From a phage, in sequence record PZ452610.1: a DNA stretch of 64,000 nucleotides, one strand, 5' to 3'. Positions 2,228 to 49,213 of the stretch are shown in pieces. Position 1 is the first letter of the stretch, and each line of letters starts with the position of its first letter. The position numbers and the translations under genes are program-made. The notes under the pieces are model-generated. The model did not search any database and had not been told where the DNA came from. It saw only the letters and a program-made list of their open reading frames with translations.

Positions 2228-2407
2228 TTAACCCTTCTTAAGTAAGTCGTAAAAACCACCGTTCACATGTTTAGGAGCAGAAACCCGACGAGTAGACAGA
2301 CGATGACATTCAGGGCAAACATCGTTTTCTCGTTCAGAAATCCTTTTAATTTTTTCATATTCATGACCACAATCTTCAGATTGACATTTATAATCGTATA
2401 ACGGCAT
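2228..2407 (-). CDS. FmdB-family zinc-ribbon protein, 59 aa (below ORF-track cutoff)
   Basis: Hand translation MPLYDYKCQSEDCGHEYEKIKRISERENDVCPECHRLSTRRVSAPKHVNGGFYDLLKKG; CxxC...CPxC ribbon; SD AAGGAA before ATG 2407. Confidence 0.6.
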   Translation of the reverse strand: MPLYDYKCQSEDCGHEYEKIKRISERENDVCPECHRLSTRRVSAPKHVNGGFYDLLKKG

Positions 2408-2409
2408 TA

Positions 2410-2820
2410 TTATTCCTTAAAATGTGCTTTCAACATTTGATACAAAGACCATGCCTGGTCATTATTTTTGATAGTAATCGTCATCACAGGAAATTCAGAC
2501 AATTCATCAAGTTCACCAGAATCTTGCTCTTCGGACGCTTGATATGGATTTCCAACTTCGTCAAAGAACTCTGCTTCATTAGTGGAGAGCCAAATAAAGT
2601 TTTCATCAAGAATATCACCGCCTGTTGCGTATCCAACTGTGCCAGTAGATGTCACAATTTTAGTAGGACGACCAAGATGGTCAACATCTAATACTTTAAA
2701 TGGTTCCATGCCAAGACGTCGTGCATAAATCCCATTATCAGTGTGGTCTTTAATAAACTCTTCTTGGGCACGTTTATCTTTAAATTGGTACCATGAGTTA
2801 ACGCGGAATTTATTAGCCAT
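2410..2820 (-). CDS. Hypothetical acidic protein, about 136 aa
   Basis: Track ORF starts at TTG 2838; ATG at 2820 (MANKF...) has SD GAAGGAAA, preferred start. Confidence 0.55.
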
Positions 2821-3047
2821 TAGTAAGTTTCCTTCCAATAAGTTGTACCGTTTTCAGTGATTTCACGGAAGATACCATAGATGGGCATTTCATCGCCAAG
2901 TTTTTCGTAAACGTAAACCACTTCGGTGTAGCATAAAAATTCGGTCCAGTTTTTCTGTACAACAACTAAATCAGGATTAAACAGAACATCTTCAAACTCA
3001 TCGATGTTTGAATCGGTAGTTACGTTTTTAATGATTTGACGTTTCAT
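2820..3047 (-). CDS. Hypothetical protein, about 75 aa
   Basis: ATG at 3047 (MKRQIIKN...) preceded by SD AGAGGAGA; stop overlaps next start. Confidence 0.5.
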
Positions 3048-3104
3048 AATATTCTCCTCTTGTTTTGATAGGTCTATAGTATCATAGACCATAGTTGTTG
3101 TACA

Positions 3105-3629
3105 TCATTTTAGCAAAATAAAATCAACTTGTTCTGCCAATGAACGTCTAAACATTAATTGACAACTTCCGAGTATGAAATCAGGTGCTTCATAGACCGC
3201 GATGTAGTATCCTTTAGCTTTCAAGAGTTCAACATCCACTTGGTCATCAAACCATGCATAAACCGCGTCAACACTTTCAAATCCAAAATAGAACCCTTGA
3301 GCCCAATCTTCACTCAATTCAAATGTGTACTCAATTCTATGGTATCTTAAGATATTTTGTTCAAGGAGTTTGTCTTCATTTACTGTAGGACGATTAGGGA
3401 CATTATAGTTGTCGCCGTGATGGTAGAAGTTACCTGAGAGTATTCCATGCTTATCAAGGAATTCCCATGTTTCTTCAGAGTTGTCGGTGCCTGACCAACC
3501 GTACGGCGAGCGAGGTTCTTTATTCCAAGAGGTTTCCCAAATTCTGACGGCTTTACCGTCTTCGATAGCAATTCCTGGTAATGATTCACGTTGAGTACAA
3601 AAACTACGTTCTACGCGGTAAACTAACAT
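3105..3629 (-). CDS. Hypothetical protein, 174 aa
   Basis: ATG 3629 with SD GAGGAG; early promoter immediately upstream. Confidence 0.6.
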   Translation of the reverse strand: MLVYRVERSFCTQRESLPGIAIEDGKAVRIWETSWNKEPRSPYGWSGTDNSEETWEFLDKHGILSGNFYHHGDNYNVPNRPTVNEDKLLEQNILRYHRIEYTFELSEDWAQGFYFGFESVDAVYAWFDDQVDVELLKAKGYYIAVYEAPDFILGSCQLMFRRSLAEQVDFILLK

Positions 3630-3655
3630 ATTATTCTCCTCTGGTTGATATGGTT

Positions 3656-3684
3656 ATAATATCAAATCCAGAGGAGAAGTAAAC
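3656..3684 (-). promoter_or_regulatory. T4-type early promoter (GTTTAC - 17 nt - TATTAT)
   Basis: Minus strand GTTTACTTCTCCTCTGGATTTGATATTAT; spacer TCCTCTGG is complementary to the downstream SD region CCAGAGGAG. Confidence 0.55.
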
Positions 3685-3688
3685 AACT

Positions 3689-4108
3689 TTATGCGAAAGC
3701 AGCTGGGCTATATTTTTTAATTTGGAATTCAGGAACTACCATGAACTGTCCAGCGAAAACAATGTTATAAAGCTTAACACCATCTTCTACCCAACGGTCG
3801 CTAATAAATCCGGCGATTTGCTTAGTTTTCCACGGTGTTCCATCAGTTGCCGCAGCAATAGTGAATTCATGGTCTTTTTCAACAGAAACTGATCTGCATA
3901 ATCCCCATTTGAACGCTTTTTCTTCCGGTTCAATGAATTGGCTTTTAACGTAACCAATGTTACCATCAGCGTCACGAACTTTAACTTCGTTACGTCCAAA
4001 AACAGGATCACTCACAGAAAGAACTTCAACCAACTTCCCGGCAACTTTAGAGCGAGAAGCAACAGATACATATACGTAATCACCTGTAGAGAGATTTACA
4101 ATATTCAT
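3689..4108 (-). CDS. Hypothetical protein, 139 aa; member A of a 3-gene tandem paralog family
   Basis: Shares C-terminal motif GFISDRWVEDGVKLYNIVFAGQF with the next two ORFs; SD AAGGAA. Confidence 0.6.
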   Translation of the reverse strand: MNIVNLSTGDYVYVSVASRSKVAGKLVEVLSVSDPVFGRNEVKVRDADGNIGYVKSQFIEPEEKAFKWGLCRSVSVEKDHEFTIAAATDGTPWKTKQIAGFISDRWVEDGVKLYNIVFAGQFMVVPEFQIKKYSPAAFA

Positions 4109-4117
4109 AATAATTCC

Positions 4118-4573
4118 TTAAGCTTTACGAGGAGACACATAGCGAGTGATTTCAGATTCTTTAACAACTCGGAAGTCACCTAAGAATACGATATTGTATA
4201 ACTTTTCACCATCTTCAACCCATTGGTCACTAATGAAGCCACACATGGTATCAGTTGTGCTTGGATAGCCGTATTCATCGATGAAGTCAAATTCTTTATC
4301 AGTCTGGAATTCAACACCTTTACACAAGGCCCATTTGAACTGTGCATTAGGTTCAGTAGAAGCAAAATGAGCGCTCACATGAGTTTCCAAGAATTTAGGA
4401 CTTACGTAAGCATATTGAGTATCCTGACGTCCAAAACTAGGAATGATTCGAACTTTAACTTCTTTAATACGTCCCATGCCATTTGTGCGAAGTCCGACAA
4501 CTTCAACCAGACGACCTGCGGCTTTAGAACGGGATGCAGTTGATACACGCTTAATTTCACCAATAGTAATCAT
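4118..4573 (-). CDS. Hypothetical protein, 151 aa; paralog B
   Basis: C-terminal motif GFISDQWVEDGEKLYNIVFLGDF; ATG 4573 with SD AAGAGAGA; own promoter. Confidence 0.6.
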   Translation of the reverse strand: MITIGEIKRVSTASRSKAAGRLVEVVGLRTNGMGRIKEVKVRIIPSFGRQDTQYAYVSPKFLETHVSAHFASTEPNAQFKWALCKGVEFQTDKEFDFIDEYGYPSTTDTMCGFISDQWVEDGEKLYNIVFLGDFRVVKESEITRYVSPRKA

Positions 4574-4601
4574 AATTTCTCTCTTTGTTTAAATTGAATT
4601 C

Positions 4602-4630
4602 ACTATACTCCATCCATCCTTGGATGTACA
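4602..4630 (-). promoter_or_regulatory. Early promoter variant (TGTACA - spacer - TATAGT) for paralog B
   Basis: Minus strand GTACATCCAAGGATGGATGGAGTATAGT; same CCAAGGATGG spacer family as the 5159, 47180 and 48200 promoters. Confidence 0.45.
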
Positions 4631-4633
4631 ACA

Positions 4634-5128
4634 TTAATTTAGAATATTAACCACAGCACTACGTGGAACTACACTAAAATCACCTGCATGAACAACGTTC
4701 AGAAGTTCAACACCGTCTTCAATCCACTGGTCAGTTACCCAGCCACTTACCGGTCCAGCGAATGGTCGACGAATTGAAACTGCTTTACACAACAAGTCTG
4801 TAGGCTCGATAGGTTTAACTAAAGTACCGTACATAGAAGCGATGTCCATATCAAAGTGGAGACCATCTTTAACAGGTGCTTCTCCAATCAACAGTTCAAA
4901 GTCGGTGCTTGGAAGGGCGGTAGTAGAAATTGTACCATATGAATTTTTAATTTCTAAGAATAACCAAGGGCCTTCAGCTTGTTTGATGAAGTTAACAATA
5001 GTGAAACTATTACCTTGAGTGGCACCTAAAATTTCACAAAACTTTTCATAAGCTCGCACTGAAGCACCGTACCAGTTGATTTGTTTTTCGTCTTTCAGGA
5101 TGTAAGTGGCCGTAGTATTGATATTCAT
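4634..5128 (-). CDS. Hypothetical protein, about 164 aa; paralog C
   Basis: C-terminal motif GWVTDQWIEDGVELLNVVHAGDF; track start is TTG 5170, ATG 5128 (MNINTT...) preferred. Confidence 0.55.
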   Translation of the reverse strand: MNINTTATYILKDEKQINWYGASVRAYEKFCEILGATQGNSFTIVNFIKQAEGPWLFLEIKNSYGTISTTALPSTDFELLIGEAPVKDGLHFDMDIASMYGTLVKPIEPTDLLCKAVSIRRPFAGPVSGWVTDQWIEDGVELLNVVHAGDFSVVPRSAVVNILN

Positions 5129-5158
5129 AATGGTTTCCAGTTTGGTTAAGATAGAAAG

Positions 5159-5188
5159 ATTATACTCCAACCATCCTTGGTTGTAAAC
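5159..5188 (-). promoter_or_regulatory. T4-type early promoter (GTTTAC - 18 nt - TATAAT)
   Basis: Minus strand GTTTACAACCAAGGATGGTTGGAGTATAAT; near-identical copies at about 47180 and 48200. Confidence 0.55.
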
Positions 5189-5193
5189 TGTTT

Positions 5194-5871
5194 TTATCGC
5201 TGTTTTACACTTAACGGGTCAGGATTCTCAGGGACATCTTCAAGGCCAAGCGCATAACGCTGAGCATATTTTAACATCAAAATATCTTTAGCACAATCAT
5301 GAATACTATCATGGGCAACGAATCCTTTTAGCGTACCCATCGGTAATGGACACATACTTAATCCTCGTGTCAACGAGTAAGCTTCGATTGCTGTACGAAT
5401 ATCACGTTGAGCCCAGAATTTAACCGGTTCTAATTTATCAGTATCAATATCTGGTTCAAGAACACCTTCATCACGATAGAGGTCACGAATCAAATCGACC
5501 AAGATCGGGAAGTCAAAGCTCATACCACGGCACCACATCTGTGATTTCCATTGGTCAACTTTATTAGCTCGACAATAATCTAAAAAGATTTTAATGCCTT
5601 CAAGCGTAGTGACATCGTCTTCAGACGGAGCCAAGTTTTTACGTGCTTCAGCCGATTGTTCTTTCCACCATTTCATAGTGGATTTAGCGAAAACTCGCTT
5701 CCCTTTCTGAGAAGCTAAATTAAATTTAATTCGCTTACCTCGTTGAACAAGTTCTTCAAATGATTCAACAACTTCAGGGTCGGAATTATATGCAATAACC
5801 GCAAGGTCAATAACAGCCGCTTTTGATGTATTGCCGAATGTTTCAAAGTCTATAATAACATCAGTGCTCAT
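5194..5871 (-). CDS. dexA: Exonuclease A (DexA), 3'-5' exonuclease
   Basis: 225 aa, N-terminus MSTDVIIDFETFGN (DEDD exonuclease motif I); immediately downstream of dda as in T4. Confidence 0.85.
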   Translation of the reverse strand: MSTDVIIDFETFGNTSKAAVIDLAVIAYNSDPEVVESFEELVQRGKRIKFNLASQKGKRVFAKSTMKWWKEQSAEARKNLAPSEDDVTTLEGIKIFLDYCRANKVDQWKSQMWCRGMSFDFPILVDLIRDLYRDEGVLEPDIDTDKLEPVKFWAQRDIRTAIEAYSLTRGLSMCPLPMGTLKGFVAHDSIHDCAKDILMLKYAQRYALGLEDVPENPDPLSVKQR

Positions 5872-5880
5872 AATTTTCTC

Positions 5881-7194
5881 TCAAATAAAATGGACGTCAA
5901 AACGACCACGAGTCGTGCCGACATACAATAACTGTTTAGCTAATTCTGAATCGGCATAATGGATACACGGTGTATAAACAAAGGCCGTGTCAACAGACAT
6001 ACCCTGGGCCTTATGGAAGGTTGATACAGGTAGTGCCTTCACCTTAGTGAACATACGTTTAGCATCCCAGAATTCGCTCCATGGAGCTTTACCGCCTTTA
6101 TTCCAGAATTTATATGTTTCTGCGGTCTTAGCCAAAAACAAATTGAATTTATAAAGCTCTTCTTCAGAAGAAATAACCTTTATATCTTCACGGATGTATT
6201 CTTCATCATCACTATATGTTTCTACTGTAAGATTCCAGTATCGTATCATATATTCGCCTGAAACACCGCGTGCTTTAACGAATGTAGACGTTTCTACAGC
6301 ATCTCGAATACGAACGAATTGCCCGTTATTGAAAAGCATTTCGGTCATATTTTTGCCATCTAGCTTATATGTCTTAGTAAATGGCTCTTGTAGAACAATG
6401 ACTTCGTCTTTAATAAATGGCTTTTCTGTTTCGAGAAGTTTTCGGCGAATAATTGAATTTAACTTGTCCACCGACTTATTTGTGAATGCCATCATTCGAT
6501 TTTCGAAAAGGTCTTCAGGAGTTTTAACGACGTTAAAATAGTTCATCATATACGATTTAAGGTCTGTATATCCATGAACACCGTGCCCATCAACTACTTT
6601 ATCGTAAATCCATTTGCCATTACGAATATCAGTCGCAACATCAATAATTGGCGCATTGCTACGTTTAACTTCTGTAAGGTTGCATTGCACGAAGTCTTTG
6701 TGAGTGAAGAAAGGACTTAGATACGCAGTTGATTCGCCTGGGTCTACCGGACGAATCTGGCATCGGTCGCCGATTCCAATTACTGTGCACCATTTAGGGA
6801 TACTAGCTAACATTATTTTAAACAGAGGACGGTCGCACATTGACGCTTCATCAAATAACAGTACACGACACAAGGCTAAGTCGGGAACCTTTTTCTGTTC
6901 AAACAATACGTTTTCTTCGTATGTAGTTGGGTTGATTTTAAGAATGCTATGAATAGTCGATGCTTCTTGACCCGCAAGTTTGCTTAGAACCTTTTTAGCA
7001 GCATGTGTAGGGGCTGCTAAAATAATACCTGATTCTCCGGCAGAAATAAGAGCTTCAACGATGAATCTAGTAAGGGTTGTTTTACCTGTACCAGCAGGCC
7101 CATTAATAGTTACGTGATGTTTCTTTTCTTTAATAGCGTTCATAACAACGTTGAAGGCGTTTTTCTGGCCTTCAGTCAAATCATCAAATGTCAT
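5881..7194 (-). CDS. dda: Dda DNA helicase (SF1B)
   Basis: 437 aa; N-terminus MTFDDLTEGQKNAFNVVMNAIKEKKHHVTINGPAGTGKTT closely matches T4 Dda as I recall it; Walker A present. Confidence 0.95.
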   Translation of the reverse strand: MTFDDLTEGQKNAFNVVMNAIKEKKHHVTINGPAGTGKTTLTRFIVEALISAGESGIILAAPTHAAKKVLSKLAGQEASTIHSILKINPTTYEENVLFEQKKVPDLALCRVLLFDEASMCDRPLFKIMLASIPKWCTVIGIGDRCQIRPVDPGESTAYLSPFFTHKDFVQCNLTEVKRSNAPIIDVATDIRNGKWIYDKVVDGHGVHGYTDLKSYMMNYFNVVKTPEDLFENRMMAFTNKSVDKLNSIIRRKLLETEKPFIKDEVIVLQEPFTKTYKLDGKNMTEMLFNNGQFVRIRDAVETSTFVKARGVSGEYMIRYWNLTVETYSDDEEYIREDIKVISSEEELYKFNLFLAKTAETYKFWNKGGKAPWSEFWDAKRMFTKVKALPVSTFHKAQGMSVDTAFVYTPCIHYADSELAKQLLYVGTTRGRFDVHFI

Positions 7195-7502
7195 CGTAAA
7201 GTCCCTGCAATTGGAATACTAACAATACGGCCTGTGTCCAGGATTCGTTGATACAATCTTTGCGTCTCCGCATCTAGTTTAACGTGTTTCATTTCAAGCT
7301 TATTAAACCAGAACTTACGCGGAGTTTCGACCATTCTTAGAACTCCCATTTTTAAATCTGTTTTATACTGTGTTTTCAAAGTATCGAAAACTTTATCTGC
7401 AATATCCTTTCTAAAAAATACTGCAGGACGATGCTCATCAAGTGGAACCGGGACAGTAAATCCTTCCATATCTCGATAAACTATTGCATATACATAAACC
7501 AT
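7191..7502 (-). CDS. Hypothetical protein, 103 aa (dda.1 position)
   Basis: ORF between dda and the srd-like gene; start overlaps dda... stop. Confidence 0.5.
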   Translation of the reverse strand: MVYVYAIVYRDMEGFTVPVPLDEHRPAVFFRKDIADKVFDTLKTQYKTDLKMGVLRMVETPRKFWFNKLEMKHVKLDAETQRLYQRILDTGRIVSIPIAGTLR

Positions 7503-46196: not shown

Positions 46197-47140
46197 TATA
46201 ACACCTCAATGGCATTTCGTAAACCATCCGCTTTCGCATTCAGAGCTTTTAACGATTTAGTCTGTTCTTTAATCTGGGCTTCGACTTCTTTCAGACGAGA
46301 TTTGAGATATTCGCGTTCTTCGGCCATGATATCGACCTTTTCTGCTTTAGGTTCTTTAATAGGCTTAAACACATTAGGGTTCTTCAGTTTAATTTTAATT
46401 CGAGAACTGAATAACATTGAACCGTTATCTTCGGTTTCGTCGAACATTTCAACAACATCCATAGTCTGTAACATCATGCGAAGTTTATAAGACAGAGAAC
46501 GAATGGTTTTGTTGCGCTTATTAATTTCTTCGGCTTTCATGGTACCGAGATTACGTGAGTAATAATAAGGAACCTGGATATCAATTGATAACGATGCGTT
46601 ACCATTACCAGTTGGTTTGAATACTGCAGTAACCCAATCTTTAACATGAACTTTATTTGTACGACCATCGCCGCCTGTGAATAATTTACGTGAATGTTTA
46701 AAAAGCATATTCACTTGGTTATTGAATTCACAAGCAAATTTATCAGCAAATTTAGTTTCAGGAATGGTGGAGAACCAATCAGCTAAATGAGTCTTTTTAA
46801 CATCATTAACAATAGTGAATTCAACCAAATCGGTTTTAGATGTCACAGATTTAATAAAGCTCGGTTTCATAAAGTTTTTAATGTTATCACGAGCCACAGT
46901 AGAAGATAATAAACGAGAACGTTTGAACCATTGAAGCAACGTCCCTAATGAATGAGAATATGCATTTTGAGTATCTTTACAGATATGATTTTCTTGGCCT
47001 GTGTATGTACCAAAATCGCGAAGAATACCACTTACTACATCTCGGTGTGGAACATCAAATCCTAATGAACCAGAAGCACGTTGGGCATGAACGTTAGCGA
47101 TAAGACCTGCAAAGTATTCAATGTAATGTGAACGTGTCAT
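46196..47140 (-). CDS. Hypothetical protein, 314 aa, C-terminal coiled coil
   Basis: First of three consecutive 314-331 aa ORFs, each behind a near-identical early promoter. Confidence 0.6.
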   Translation of the reverse strand: MTRSHYIEYFAGLIANVHAQRASGSLGFDVPHRDVVSGILRDFGTYTGQENHICKDTQNAYSHSLGTLLQWFKRSRLLSSTVARDNIKNFMKPSFIKSVTSKTDLVEFTIVNDVKKTHLADWFSTIPETKFADKFACEFNNQVNMLFKHSRKLFTGGDGRTNKVHVKDWVTAVFKPTGNGNASLSIDIQVPYYYSRNLGTMKAEEINKRNKTIRSLSYKLRMMLQTMDVVEMFDETEDNGSMLFSSRIKIKLKNPNVFKPIKEPKAEKVDIMAEEREYLKSRLKEVEAQIKEQTKSLKALNAKADGLRNAIEVL

Positions 47141-47179
47141 AATATTTTCCTCTCGTTAAGATAGATTCATTATACTCCA

Positions 47180-47210
47180 ACCATCCTTGGTTGTAAACTA
47201 TTTTATGATT
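47180..47210 (-). promoter_or_regulatory. Early promoter (GTTTAC - CCAAGGATGG spacer - TATAAT)
   Basis: Plus strand attatactccaaccatccttggttgtaaac; same as the 5159 promoter. Confidence 0.55.
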
Positions 47211-48162
47211 TTAACGCATTCATTGCGTTAAAAAGTTTAGAATACTGCAACTGGAGATTCGTTACAACACTTTGAGCATCACGAAGCTTAGCTTGTGCTT
47301 TGTCAAGTTCAACAGACAGTTGGTCCATAGTGGCCTTGATTTGATTGTAATGGTAATCTTCGGCCGGAAGAAGGTCATTAGAAACATTTAGTTTTACTGC
47401 AGACAGTTTGCACACATTTGGCAAACCTTTAAACATTGATTTACCCGAAGTAGAATAAGCACTTAGGACTTCGGCCTGTTCAATTGGGGTCCCAGTAAGC
47501 GATGCTTCAAACAATGCATTTTCCTTTTTAAGATTTTGATAATATTCGGAGTCTTTGTGCCACCATGGCGCAGGAACCTTTTTACCAATAGATACACGAG
47601 CCTGGATAGCGATATGGCCCTTATTCTTGATAAGGTCGATAATATTAAGCTCACGAGAATAAATCGCTTTAATCTGGTGGATATTATCACCTAAAACTTC
47701 CAACGCTTGGTGGAATACACGAGCGACATTATCATTCTTAGGTTTATACGTAAGAGTGAACTCATTCTCACTGATAACCATGATTTCCAACTTATCGTAA
47801 GTATATTTCAAATGTTTCATGTTAATTGCTTGAGGACGAATACGAGAAGCAATGGCCATCAGATTGTTAAGGTTATTCCGGAACTGCTTAGCGAAATATT
47901 GTCCTTCACCGCCAATACAAAAATTACGAAGTTTCTGTTTGGCCAATAAACGGCTGAACTCACCATTTTTAATGAACTCTTTAACGGGTGTGTTAGTAAC
48001 GCATTCAAATTGAGTAAACTTACGAGAAGTAATCCCATAATATGAACAGATTTCCTCAATCTCTTCAGGAGTCTTTACAGGCATACGGATAGGATTAGGT
48101 CCTGGAGTATATGCGTTCGAGGTAAATTCTTTGATAAGTTCTCTACGTGTAATAAAAGCCAT
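47203..48162 (-). CDS. Hypothetical protein, 319 aa, C-terminal coiled coil
   Basis: ORF with own promoter. Confidence 0.6.
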   Translation of the reverse strand: MAFITRRELIKEFTSNAYTPGPNPIRMPVKTPEEIEEICSYYGITSRKFTQFECVTNTPVKEFIKNGEFSRLLAKQKLRNFCIGGEGQYFAKQFRNNLNNLMAIASRIRPQAINMKHLKYTYDKLEIMVISENEFTLTYKPKNDNVARVFHQALEVLGDNIHQIKAIYSRELNIIDLIKNKGHIAIQARVSIGKKVPAPWWHKDSEYYQNLKKENALFEASLTGTPIEQAEVLSAYSTSGKSMFKGLPNVCKLSAVKLNVSNDLLPAEDYHYNQIKATMDQLSVELDKAQAKLRDAQSVVTNLQLQYSKLFNAMNALKS

Positions 48163-48199
48163 TTTATATTCCTCATGTTGAAAAATTTATTATACTCCA

Positions 48200-48230
48200 A
48201 CCATCCTTGGTTGTACATCATTCCTTAAGA
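48200..48230 (-). promoter_or_regulatory. Early promoter of the same family (TGTACA variant)
   Basis: Plus strand ttatactccaaccatccttggttgtacat. Confidence 0.5.
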
Positions 48231-49213
48231 AGTTTTACTACCTGAATAAGATTAGCTCGTTCTGTTTTATTTTTACCGTTTAAGCCTGCTAATCGTGAGA
48301 TTTCATCGTCAGTCTGTTGAATAGTTACATTAAGTTCGTTAATCAAAGCTTCAAAGTATTTGATTTGCTCAGCATGTTTTGATTCAAATTTCTGAACCGG
48401 AATAACGTCTTGGTTCAGTTCATCAATAAGGTCTTTAAGAGCATCTTCTTGGTTGATATCATATTCAACTTCTTTTATTTCTTCAACGAGCTCGTCTTTA
48501 TATCTAACGTCTTTTAGTCCTGGAGCTGGTCCTGAAATCTCTTCTTTAAGAGTACAAACATACCCAATACGGTATCCAACGCCGTCTCGCTTGATATCAA
48601 CTTCGTCGATAAATCCACAATGTTTAAGTCCAGAGCCGATTATGTCAAAATATCCTTGACGTCGTCCTTCAAACGTTACACGAACTACTAAGACGGTTTT
48701 GCCACCGACCTTTTGAAGCTCACATTTATAAAAGTTTGTTGAACCTGAATAACATGGATGAGTTTTAAAGTTCATCTGACGATCTAGGCCCATTTGTAAA
48801 CGTGCTGTTACGGCCATAAAACGTGTTTGGTTCTCGTTAAGATGAGCAACAATCCATTTCAAAGGCATTTTACCCTGTTCACGGCCGAACAAATCAGTAC
48901 GTCCTAGATTACGCAGGATGTTGTTAGAGTTAATCATCGACAGAACGTTAAGTTTATTCAGCGCGCTGAAGATTCCATCAGCCATTGATTTTCCATAACC
49001 TTTACACGCTTTAATAAGTGCTCGCGGCAGATTAGTATAGATTTCAGACGGCATATGAAAATCAAATTTACTAGTCAGTAATTGATGAACTTGGATAGCA
49101 ATTTGCTCATAATTAAGTGCTCTGCGATCGTTATGGTCTTTAAACCATACTTTAATCTGTGAAGCACATAAACCGTTAATTTCATGTTTTACCGCATCAG
49201 ATGTAATGCTCAT
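48218..49213 (-). CDS. Hypothetical protein, 331 aa, C-terminal coiled coil
   Basis: ORF with own promoter. Confidence 0.6.
   Translation of the reverse strand: MSITSDAVKHEINGLCASQIKVWFKDHNDRRALNYEQIAIQVHQLLTSKFDFHMPSEIYTNLPRALIKACKGYGKSMADGIFSALNKLNVLSMINSNNILRNLGRTDLFGREQGKMPLKWIVAHLNENQTRFMAVTARLQMGLDRQMNFKTHPCYSGSTNFYKCELQKVGGKTVLVVRVTFEGRRQGYFDIIGSGLKHCGFIDEVDIKRDGVGYRIGYVCTLKEEISGPAPGLKDVRYKDELVEEIKEVEYDINQEDALKDLIDELNQDVIPVQKFESKHAEQIKYFEALINELNVTIQQTDDEISRLAGLNGKNKTERANLIQVVKLLKE

What the first reader, a model, noticed from the sequence alone, without database searches (positions are those of the whole stretch)
3689..5190. Tandem triplet of small paralogs with a conserved C-terminal motif
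Three adjacent genes (139, 151, about 164 aa) share the C-terminal block G[FW][IV][ST]D[RQ]W[VI]EDG[VE][KE]L[YL]N[IV]VF.G[QD]F but diverge at the N-terminus. Two carry the CCAAGGATGG-spacer early promoter. This pattern suggests duplication followed by diversification.
Basis: seen in the sequence. Interest (0 to 1): 0.5.

Follow-up and report, generated by a model that had tools for sequence, protein, structure and literature searches.

The report
MotB-family early gene cluster, T4-like phage
The three adjacent small genes are the already-described motB.1, motB and second motB copy of an RB69-like T-even phage; they share a conserved C-terminal domain, so the finding is real but ordinary.

Summary
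Three minus-strand genes (4634-5128, 164 aa; 4118-4573, 151 aa; 3689-4108, 139 aa) share a significant C-terminal block, and two have near-identical sigma-70 early-type promoters with a CCAAGGATGG spacer.

It is known biology. This stretch of the window (2400-7200) is 100% identical to E. coli O157 typing phages 3, 6 and 13 (typing phage 3 is filed under Mosigvirus, RB69-like). All three proteins pass the Pfam PF17613 (motB) threshold. They correspond to RB69 motB.1, motB and ORF010c. Nolan 2006 already called ORF010c a duplication of motB. Patterson-West 2021 already described the C-terminal domain (CTD) shared by MotB and MotB.1, with different N-terminal domains, and RB69's two motB copies.

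"Duplication then N-terminal divergence" fits only the 139/151 pair (43% identity, full length). The 164-aa protein shares only about 37-60 C-terminal residues; its N-terminal domain is unrelated to MotB's (hhalign probability 0).

All three genes are under purifying selection (dN/dS 0.07-0.29).

Most likely function, by homology to T4 MotB: abundant early proteins that coat and compact DNA and counteract H-NS silencing. The roles of the two paralogs are uncharacterised.

Side finding: the T4 and RB69 reference records carry 1-nt insertions that truncate or split motB.1. The gene is intact here.

The parts
5159..5187 (-). Early-type sigma-70 promoter of the motB.1 ortholog: TTTACA, 17-nt spacer containing CCAAGGATGG, TATAAT
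   Evidence: Scores 11/12 in the consensus scan. Nearly identical to three other promoters in the window. GTTTAC at -35 matches the T4/RB69 early consensus described in PMC1524935.
4634..5128 (-). motB.1 ortholog, 164 aa: N-terminal MotB.1-type domain (published as LSm-like), disordered linker, MotB-type C-terminal domain
   Evidence: phrog_2333 E 3.7e-80 and Pfam PF17613 35.3 bits against a cut-off of 25. 37% identity to T4 MotB.1, E 1e-21. AF2 model has mean pLDDT 79.8, with residues 90-101 disordered. Corresponds to RB69 motB.1 plus the 29-aa ORF012.
4646..4756 (-). Conserved C-terminal core of w164 (residues 125-161), the part homologous to MotB
   Evidence: hhalign aligned columns 21-57 of the 60-residue CTD profile. 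Motif GWVTDQWIEDGVELLNVVHAGDF at residues 129-151.
4602..4630 (-). Early-type promoter of motB: TGTACA, 17-nt spacer with CCAAGGATGG, TATAGT
4118..4573 (-). motB ortholog, 151 aa: basic KOW-like N-terminal domain, disordered linker, C-terminal 5-strand beta domain
   Evidence: Pfam PF17613 126.5 bits, E 1.2e-36, covering profile positions 2-157 of 162. phrog_1671 E 4e-64. 47% identity to T4 MotB, E 3.5e-37, and 93% to RB69 MotB (P0131). AF2 mean pLDDT 84.2.
4142..4252 (-). Conserved C-terminal core of w151 (residues 108-144)
3689..4108 (-). Second motB paralog, 139 aa (ortholog of RB69 ORF010c / RB69p010). Same two-domain layout as MotB, but with a shortened, non-basic N-terminal domain and a short linker. 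Probably co-transcribed and translationally coupled with motB: 9-nt gap, AAGGA overlapping the motB stop codon.
   Evidence: Pfam PF17613 77.2 bits. 43% identity to w151 over the full length. RB69 annotation. 208 phage records carry a copy at >=80% identity.
3713..3823 (-). Conserved C-terminal core of w139 (residues 96-132)

Best explanation
This is the motB.1 - motB - motB-paralog cluster of an RB69-like T-even phage. It sits in the dispensable early region between dexA and cef.

Expression. Host RNA polymerase would transcribe the cluster soon after infection from two strong early-type promoters. One transcript would carry motB.1; the other would carry motB together with the 139-aa paralog.

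Function, by homology to T4 MotB. The 151-aa protein is most likely an abundant, sequence-nonspecific DNA-binding, nucleoid-associated-like protein. It would coat and compact host and phage DNA and alter H-NS binding, relieving H-NS silencing and modestly raising burst size.

Architecture. Each of the three proteins is two small beta-rich domains joined by a flexible linker. They share the C-terminal domain, a 5-strand SH3/Tudor-like barrel with the core G(F/W)(I/V)(S/T)D(Q/R)W(V/I)EDG..L.N.V(F/H).G.F.VVP. The N-terminal domains differ:
- a strongly basic KOW-like domain in MotB;
- a neutral, shortened KOW-like domain in the 139-aa paralog;
- an unrelated acidic MotB.1-type (LSm-like) domain in the 164-aa protein.

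My inference is that the basic KOW-like domain supplies most of the DNA affinity. The shared, acidic C-terminal domain would then be a common interaction or self-association module that different N-terminal effector domains have been attached to.

Shown here: homology, family membership, synteny, promoters, purifying selection, predicted folds and charge distribution. Taken from the literature: DNA binding and the H-NS effects of T4 MotB. Inferred: the division of labour between domains, and any function of the two paralogs.
For: Identity of the locus. Window 2400-7200 is 100% identical to E. coli O157 typing phages 3, 6 and 13. Gene order matches RB69: dda, dexA, motB.1 (+ORF012), motB, ORF010c, motB.2, cef, goF.

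Family. All three proteins exceed the Pfam PF17613 gathering score. PHROG assignments are, and BLASTP to T4 MotB and MotB.1.

Shared module. hhalign CTD vs CTD gives 98.7%, E 4e-16, while N-terminal domain vs N-terminal domain gives probability 0. The same CTD is found fused to KOW-like, MotB.1-type, 'MKFNYNP...' and double-middle-domain N-termini in relatives.

Charge. The w151 N-terminal domain has pI 11.0 (net +8) and its CTD pI 4.5 (net -5). w164 has overall pI 4.7. The w139 N-terminal domain has net charge 0.

Selection. dN/dS is 0.07-0.29 for each gene across five phages.

Promoters.

Literature. MotB binds DNA nonspecifically, copurifies with H-NS and StpA, is toxic to E. coli and doubles burst size (abstract of PMC6070864, as listed). 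MotB changes the H-NS footprint and up-regulates H-NS-repressed genes; the paper also describes the MotB/MotB.1 shared CTD and RB69's 2 motB + 1 motB.1 (PMC7827196). MotB compaction of DNA is summarised in PMC12449154 and PMC13096335. RB69ORF010c was called a duplication of motB in PMC1524935.
Against: No experiment exists for this phage, for the 139-aa paralog, or for a full-length MotB.1.

T4 delta-motB.1 has no burst-size or latent-period phenotype, and MotB.1 had little effect in an RNA reporter assay (PMC12152347). MotB.1 function is therefore open.

w151 is only 47% identical to T4 MotB and much less basic overall (pI 7.7 against 9.2), so its DNA-binding strength may differ.
Confidence: 0.85

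Rival explanations
1. Whole-gene triplication followed by divergence concentrated at the N-terminus. All three genes would descend from one ancestral two-domain gene, and the w164 N-terminus would simply have diverged beyond recognition.
For: The genes are adjacent, on the same strand and of similar size. w139 and w151 clearly are whole-gene duplicates. All N-terminal domains are small beta-rich, SH3-like domains, so very ancient common ancestry cannot be excluded.
Against: Profile-profile comparison finds nothing between the N-terminal domains (probability 0.0), while the CTDs score 98.7%. The w164 N-terminal domain is published as part of a separate family that includes GoF and Frd.2, which lack the MotB CTD. 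Relatives combine the MotB.1-type CTD with a KOW-like N-terminal domain (P0059, P0070) and with other N-termini (P0030, P0033, P0228). A recombinant with a T4-type N-terminal domain and a w139-type CTD also exists (P0221). Modules are therefore being exchanged.
Confidence: 0.1
2. The shared C-terminal domain is the DNA-binding OB-fold (Patterson-West 2021). All three proteins would then be DNA binders that compete or cooperate on DNA.
For: HHpred assigned the MotB CTD to the cold-shock/OB family with eIF5A hits (PMC7827196). The domain is the most conserved part of the family. The T4 MotB CTD is slightly basic (pI 7.95).
Confidence: 0.25
3. The shared motif is a chance or low-complexity resemblance and the genes are unrelated.
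For: The similarity of w164 to the other two covers only 38-89 residues.
Against: Smith-Waterman scores are about 16 to 45 SD above shuffles (15.8, 16.5, 45.1), BLASTP E-values are 1e-4 to 1e-26 at a database size of 1e8, all three pass the Pfam GA threshold, and hhalign gives E 4e-16.
Confidence: 0.01

Closest known systems
Bacteriophage T4 MotB (Pfam PF17613; phrog_1671)
   Same: w151 is its ortholog. It is 47% identical over the full length, has the same KOW-like N-terminal domain plus conserved CTD, lies in the same early region between cef and dexA, and has an early promoter. w139 is a full-length paralog with the same architecture.
   Different: w151 is shorter in the linker and less basic (pI 7.7 against 9.2). 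w139 has lost the basic character of the N-terminal domain and most of the linker. T4 itself has only one motB.
T4 MotB.1 (phrog_2333; LSm-like-fold family with GoF and Frd.2, Kim et al. 2025)
   Same: w164 is its ortholog (37% identity, E 1e-21). The N-terminal domain type and the CTD core (DPTDLLCKAV..RRPF...GWVTDQWIEDGVELLNVVHAG) are the same, and it sits next to motB.
   Different: w164 has a 21-residue insertion in the linker (HFDMDIASMYGTLVKP...) that is absent from the 143-145-aa Tequatrovirus forms. The T4 reference annotation (119 aa) is truncated by a 1-nt insertion, whereas the gene is intact here.
RB69 ORF010c, motB, ORF012 + motB.1 (NC_004928)
   Same: Identical gene order and sizes for ORF010c (139 aa) and motB (151 aa). 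The window's motB.1 aligns to RB69 motB.1 plus ORF012 along its whole length, with 95% mean column identity.
   Different: In the RB69 record two single-T insertions split motB.1 into a 132-aa ORF and a 29-aa ORF. The window has one intact 164-aa ORF.
SH3-like-barrel chromatin and nucleic-acid binders (Tudor/chromo/PWWP 'Royal' domains, KOW of NusG/Spt5)
   Different: Sequence identity to the listed hits is low (5-21%) and none is known to be related. An aromatic cage or methyl-lysine reading was not examined. It cannot be told which domain of the models the hits align to. This is a resemblance only, not membership.

Membership tests
MotB family (Pfam PF17613) | Whole-protein score above Pfam's gathering threshold (25 bits) | tested here: met
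   w139 77.2 bits, w151 126.5 bits, w164 35.3 bits. For w164 only the C-terminal 72 residues match.
MotB family (Pfam PF17613) | Conserved C-terminal core G-x-[IV]-[ST]-D-[QR]-W-[VI]-E-x-G-x-x-L-x-N-x-V | tested here: met
   Present in all three. Invariant D, W, E, G, L, N, V across 34 MotB-type and 30 MotB.1-type sequences.
MotB proper (T4 MotB orthogroup, phrog_1671) | N-terminal KOW-like domain with the VS..SRSK.AG.LVEV ... EVKVR motif | tested here: met
   Met for w151 and w139. Not met for w164, whose N-terminal profile shows no similarity (hhalign probability 0).
MotB proper (T4 MotB orthogroup, phrog_1671) | Position in the early, dispensable region between cef/goF and dexA/dda, transcribed in the same direction as its neighbours | tested here: met
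MotB proper (T4 MotB orthogroup, phrog_1671) | Tight sequence-nonspecific DNA binding, copurification with H-NS/StpA, toxicity in E. coli, DNA compaction | not testable with these tools
   Known only for T4 MotB (PMC6070864, PMC7827196). Charge analysis shows a basic N-terminal domain in w151 but not in w139.
MotB.1 subfamily (phrog_2333; LSm-like-fold N-terminal domain) | Full-length sequence match to MotB.1 orthologs | tested here: met
   w164: phrog_2333 E 3.7e-80 over residues 1-164. T4 MotB.1 37% identity over 134 aa, E 1e-21. Homologs at 46-93% identity with 98-100% coverage.
MotB.1 subfamily (phrog_2333; LSm-like-fold N-terminal domain) | N-terminal bent five-stranded antiparallel beta-sheet (LSm-like fold) | tested here: inconclusive
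T4-type early promoter | GTTTAC-like -35, ~17-nt spacer, TATAAT-like -10, placed just upstream of an early gene | tested here: met
   Consensus level only: 5187-5159 and 4630-4602. Transcription itself was not tested.

The most novel reading that the evidence does not exclude
The conserved C-terminal domain may not be the DNA-binding part. It could be an acidic SH3/Tudor-like docking or self-association module shared by three early proteins that carry different effector domains: a basic KOW-like DNA binder, a neutral KOW-like variant, and an LSm-like domain that may bind RNA. The three would then co-assemble, or converge on the same host partner, forming a mixed phage 'chromatin' complex. If so, the published negative results for T4 MotB.1 could be artefacts of a reference-sequence frameshift that removes the last 29 residues of this module.
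Probability: 0.2. Interest if true: 0.5.

Novelty: already known. Interest (0 to 1): 0.15.

Why it matters
As a discovery it matters little. The family has a Pfam entry, the paralogy was noted for RB69 in 2006, and the shared CTD was analysed in 2021.

Its practical value lies in three refinements.

1. Only two of the three genes are whole-gene duplicates. The third shares a mobile C-terminal module that T-even phages recombine with several N-terminal domains.

2. The shared module is acidic and SH3/Tudor-like in AF2 models. This argues that MotB's DNA affinity lies in the basic KOW-like domain and that the conserved module does something else. That question bears on how a phage nucleoid-associated protein displaces H-NS.

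3. The T4 and RB69 reference sequences misrepresent motB.1. The published work on 'MotB.1' reports a 13.8-kDa monomer, which matches the 119-aa truncated product. Intact alleles such as this window's 164-aa gene are the right material for functional tests.

Tried and rejected
- PDB sequence search with w151 found no hit at E <= 1.
- A tblastn search of the whole 64-kb window for further copies of the module found none beyond the three genes.
- A profile search of the C-terminal module against 1.84 billion representative proteins gave only 38 hits at E <= 1e-3. Most are small proteins (about 40-250 aa); all thirteen distant small ones I inspected have MotB-like architectures. The rest are long (361-1393 aa) multi-stretch hits. 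The one long hit I inspected (P0244) carries 'SGYATEQWV' repeats and I judged it spurious; I assume the same for the others. I found no evidence that the module exists outside T4-like phages.
- The first hhalign of the full alignments A3 and A4 was contaminated by two hybrid sequences present in both alignments. I discarded it and repeated it per domain without them.
- I considered whether w174 (3105-3629), labelled 'transcriptional regulator' in some records, is a fourth paralog. It is the MotB.2 homolog (33% identity to T4 MotB.2, phrog_1106) and shows no similarity to the MotB module.
- Son et al. 2021 (NAR) on MotB compaction is not in the held library. I relied on its summaries in later papers.

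Full report
**What is in the sequence.** Window 3689-5190 holds three minus-strand ORFs:
- 4634-5128, 164 aa from the ATG, called w164 here;
- 4118-4573, 151 aa, called w151;
- 3689-4108, 139 aa, called w139.

A multiple alignment shows a shared C-terminal block and, for w139 and w151, similarity along the whole length. BLASTP with the database size set to 1e8 gives 43% identity over 145 aa (E 1e-26) for w139/w151, 30% over 89 aa (E 1e-5) for w139/w164, and 42% over 38 aa (E 1e-4) for w151/w164. Smith-Waterman scores are 45, 16.5 and 15.8 SD above 1000 shuffles.

It matches w164 only if H is allowed where the regex has F.

CCAAGGATGG occurs four times exactly in the window, always on the minus strand inside a nearly identical ~30-nt promoter, GTTTACAACCAAGGATGG(T/A)TGGAGTATAAT. 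Two of these lie directly upstream of w164 (5187-5159, TTTACA-17-TATAAT, 11/12 consensus matches) and w151 (4630-4602). w139 starts 9 nt after the w151 stop and has no promoter of its own.

**What it is.** Window 2400-7200 is 100% identical to E. coli O157 typing phages 3, 6 and 13; typing phage 3 is filed under Mosigvirus, the RB69 genus. All three proteins exceed the gathering threshold of Pfam PF17613 'motB' (77, 126 and 35 bits against 25). PHROGs places w139 and w151 in phrog_1671 (MotB-like) and w164 in phrog_2333, with weaker hits to phrog_1671.

Against T4, w151 is the MotB ortholog (47% identity, E 3.5e-37) and w164 is the MotB.1 ortholog (37%, E 1e-21). The neighbouring 174-aa gene (3105-3629) is the MotB.2 homolog and is unrelated to the module.

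RB69 has the same order: dexA, motB.1 (+ORF012), motB, ORF010c, motB.2, cef.

**What is already published.**
- Nolan et al. 2006 (PMC1524935) named 'RB69ORF010c with motB' as an example of paralogous duplication of an adjacent gene, and predicted 57 early promoters in RB69.
- Patterson-West et al. 2021 (PMC7827196) aligned 102 homologs. They reported that MotB and MotB.1 share a CTD but have different N-terminal domains, proposed duplication, and noted that RB69 has two motB copies, one motB.1 and a 29-aa peptide.
- Kim et al. 2025 (PMC12152347) assigned the MotB.1 N-terminal domain to an LSm-like-fold family with GoF and Frd.2.

The finding is therefore already known.

**Refining the interpretation.** I compared per-domain profiles with hhalign, after removing two hybrid sequences that had contaminated a first attempt. 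The CTDs of the MotB and MotB.1 groups are homologous (probability 98.7%, E 4e-16, 37 columns). The N-terminal domains are not detectably related (probability 0.0, E 0.85).

Relatives carry the same MotB.1-type CTD behind other N-termini:
- a KOW-like domain (P0059, P0070, P0232-P0241);
- an 'MKFNYNP...' leader plus a middle domain (the ~180-aa proteins);
- a MotB.1-like domain plus a middle domain (~248 aa);
- two middle domains (P0228).

P0221 joins a T4-type MotB N-terminal domain to a w139-type CTD. So w139 and w151 are whole-gene duplicates, whereas w164 shares a shuffled module.

**Selection and mosaicism.** I compared the window with mobillu, ZQ3, Sf24 and GiZh. Pairwise Nei-Gojobori dN/dS is 0.07-0.29 for the motB.1 ortholog, 0.12-0.25 for the motB ortholog (one pair with only 3 substitutions gave 0.60) and 0.07-0.18 for w139. 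All three genes are maintained by purifying selection.

The cluster is mosaic relative to its flanks. The Tequatroviruses Sf24 and GiZh carry the w139-type paralog and a Mosigvirus-like motB (dS 0.49-0.59 to the window), and Sf24 also carries a Mosigvirus-like 164-aa motB.1 (dS 0.34). Their dexA is saturated against the window (dS > 2). Within Mosigvirus, dexA has dS of about 0.03, but w139 reaches 0.385.

A w139-type gene at >=80% identity is present in 208 of the 778 phage records that have any MotB match. No record falls between 60% and 80%.

**Structure and charge.**
- AF2 with family alignments gave pLDDT 84.2 for w151 and 79.8 for w164. Each model is two small beta domains separated by a disordered linker.
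- The CTD has five strands with a 3-residue helix between strands 4 and 5 and no helix between strands 3 and 4. This is the SH3-like pattern rather than the OB pattern.
- Foldseek against viral models finds only T4-like phage MotB-type proteins at significant E-values.
- The w151 N-terminal domain is very basic (pI 11.0, net +8) and its CTD acidic (pI 4.5, net -5).
- w164 and T4 MotB.1 are acidic throughout (pI ~4.7).
- The w139 N-terminal domain has net charge 0.

**Mechanism.**
- From the literature: T4 MotB is an abundant early protein that binds modified and unmodified DNA without sequence specificity. [quoted passage not shown] It is described as compacting or wrapping host and phage DNA.
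- By orthology: I assign this role to w151.
- Inference from charge and fold: the basic KOW-like domain is the main DNA-binding surface, and the conserved acidic CTD is a shared interaction or self-association module.
- Open: w139 (neutral N-terminal domain) and w164 (acidic, LSm-like N-terminal domain) probably do something different from bulk DNA coating. Their functions are unknown, and T4 delta-motB.1 has no laboratory phenotype.

**Side finding.**
- T4 reference error: the T4 reference (NC_000866.4 / AF158101.6) annotates MotB.1 as 119 aa ending '...GWVTDQWIGRWR*'. Its DNA reads tggattGgaagatggc.
- Other T4 records: thirteen other T4-type genome records align 185 nt to this 186-nt stretch, so they lack one base. 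In MT984581 the gene encodes 143 aa ending '...GWVTDQWIEDGVELLNVVHAGEYSVVPRSAVVAILN'. This is the same as P0011, which is seen on 256 contigs.
- RB69: the reference has two single-T insertions relative to the window. They split motB.1 into a 132-aa ORF and the 29-aa ORF012. This explains the 'Category 3' 29-aa peptide of Patterson-West 2021.
- Consequence for published work: the 119-aa product weighs 13.8 kDa and the 143-aa product 16.2 kDa. Kim et al. report a 13.8-kDa MotB.1 monomer, and their methods say constructs were made by gene synthesis unless otherwise indicated. They therefore probably studied the truncated form.

**Verdict.** The finding is real and statistically solid, but it is a known gene family in a known arrangement. 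Interest is low. The only parts that go beyond the literature are the module-shuffling refinement, the charge and fold argument about which domain binds DNA, and the errors in the reference sequences.

Noticed in passing
L003 2292-2651 (T4 NC_000866.4 7291-7650); compare L007 150-581 (MT984581): The T4 reference motB.1 (119 aa) carries one extra G that truncates the conserved C-terminal core. Thirteen other T4-type genome records lack it, and in MT984581 (the one translated) the gene encodes a 143-aa protein with the full MotB-type CTD. The 13.8-kDa MotB.1 studied in Kim et al. 2025 matches the truncated form.
   Followed up: yes
L008 3377-3873 (RB69 NC_004928 8376-8872) against window 4634-5128: RB69's motB.1 (132 aa) and the 29-aa ORF012 are one gene split by two single-T insertions relative to the intact 164-aa window gene. 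This explains the 29-aa 'Category 3' peptide of Patterson-West 2021.
   Followed up: yes
window 3637-3675 (- strand), upstream of the motB.2 homolog at 3105-3629: A stable hairpin (UCCUCUGG...CCAGAGGA, -17.7 kcal/mol, z -4.2) pairs the Shine-Dalgarno GAGGAG of the 174-aa gene. A promoter-like TTTACT-16-TATTAT site (3683-3656) has its -10 hexamer in the loop. Read-through transcripts would therefore have a sequestered ribosome-binding site, while transcripts starting inside the hairpin would not, an arrangement reminiscent of some T4 genes.
   Followed up: partly
window 47137-47217 and 48157-48237 (- strand): Two more nearly identical copies of the GT(T/G)TACAACCAAGGATGGTTGGAGTATAAT promoter, each followed by a ribosome-binding site and an ATG. 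The whole spacer is conserved, not only the hexamers, which suggests recent spread of the promoter or selection on the spacer.
   Followed up: partly
L004 (Shigella phage Sf24) 1448-2920; L005 (phage GiZh) 1508-2920: These Tequatroviruses carry the w139-type paralog and a Mosigvirus-like motB (dS 0.49-0.59 to the window), and Sf24 also a Mosigvirus-like 164-aa motB.1 (dS 0.34), while the adjacent dexA is saturated (dS > 2). GiZh combines the same motB and paralog with a T4-type 145-aa motB.1. The cluster is exchanged between genera by recombination. motB.2 also sits on the other side of the cluster than in the window.
   Followed up: partly
proteins P0059, P0070, P0221, P0228, P0030: Hybrid architectures exist: a KOW-like N-terminal domain with a MotB.1-type CTD; a T4-type MotB N-terminal domain with a w139-type CTD; and proteins with one or two extra middle domains before the CTD. 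The linker motif DMDIASMYGTL(V/I)KP appears either in the linker (w164) or at the very N-terminus (the 180-aa proteins).
   Followed up: partly
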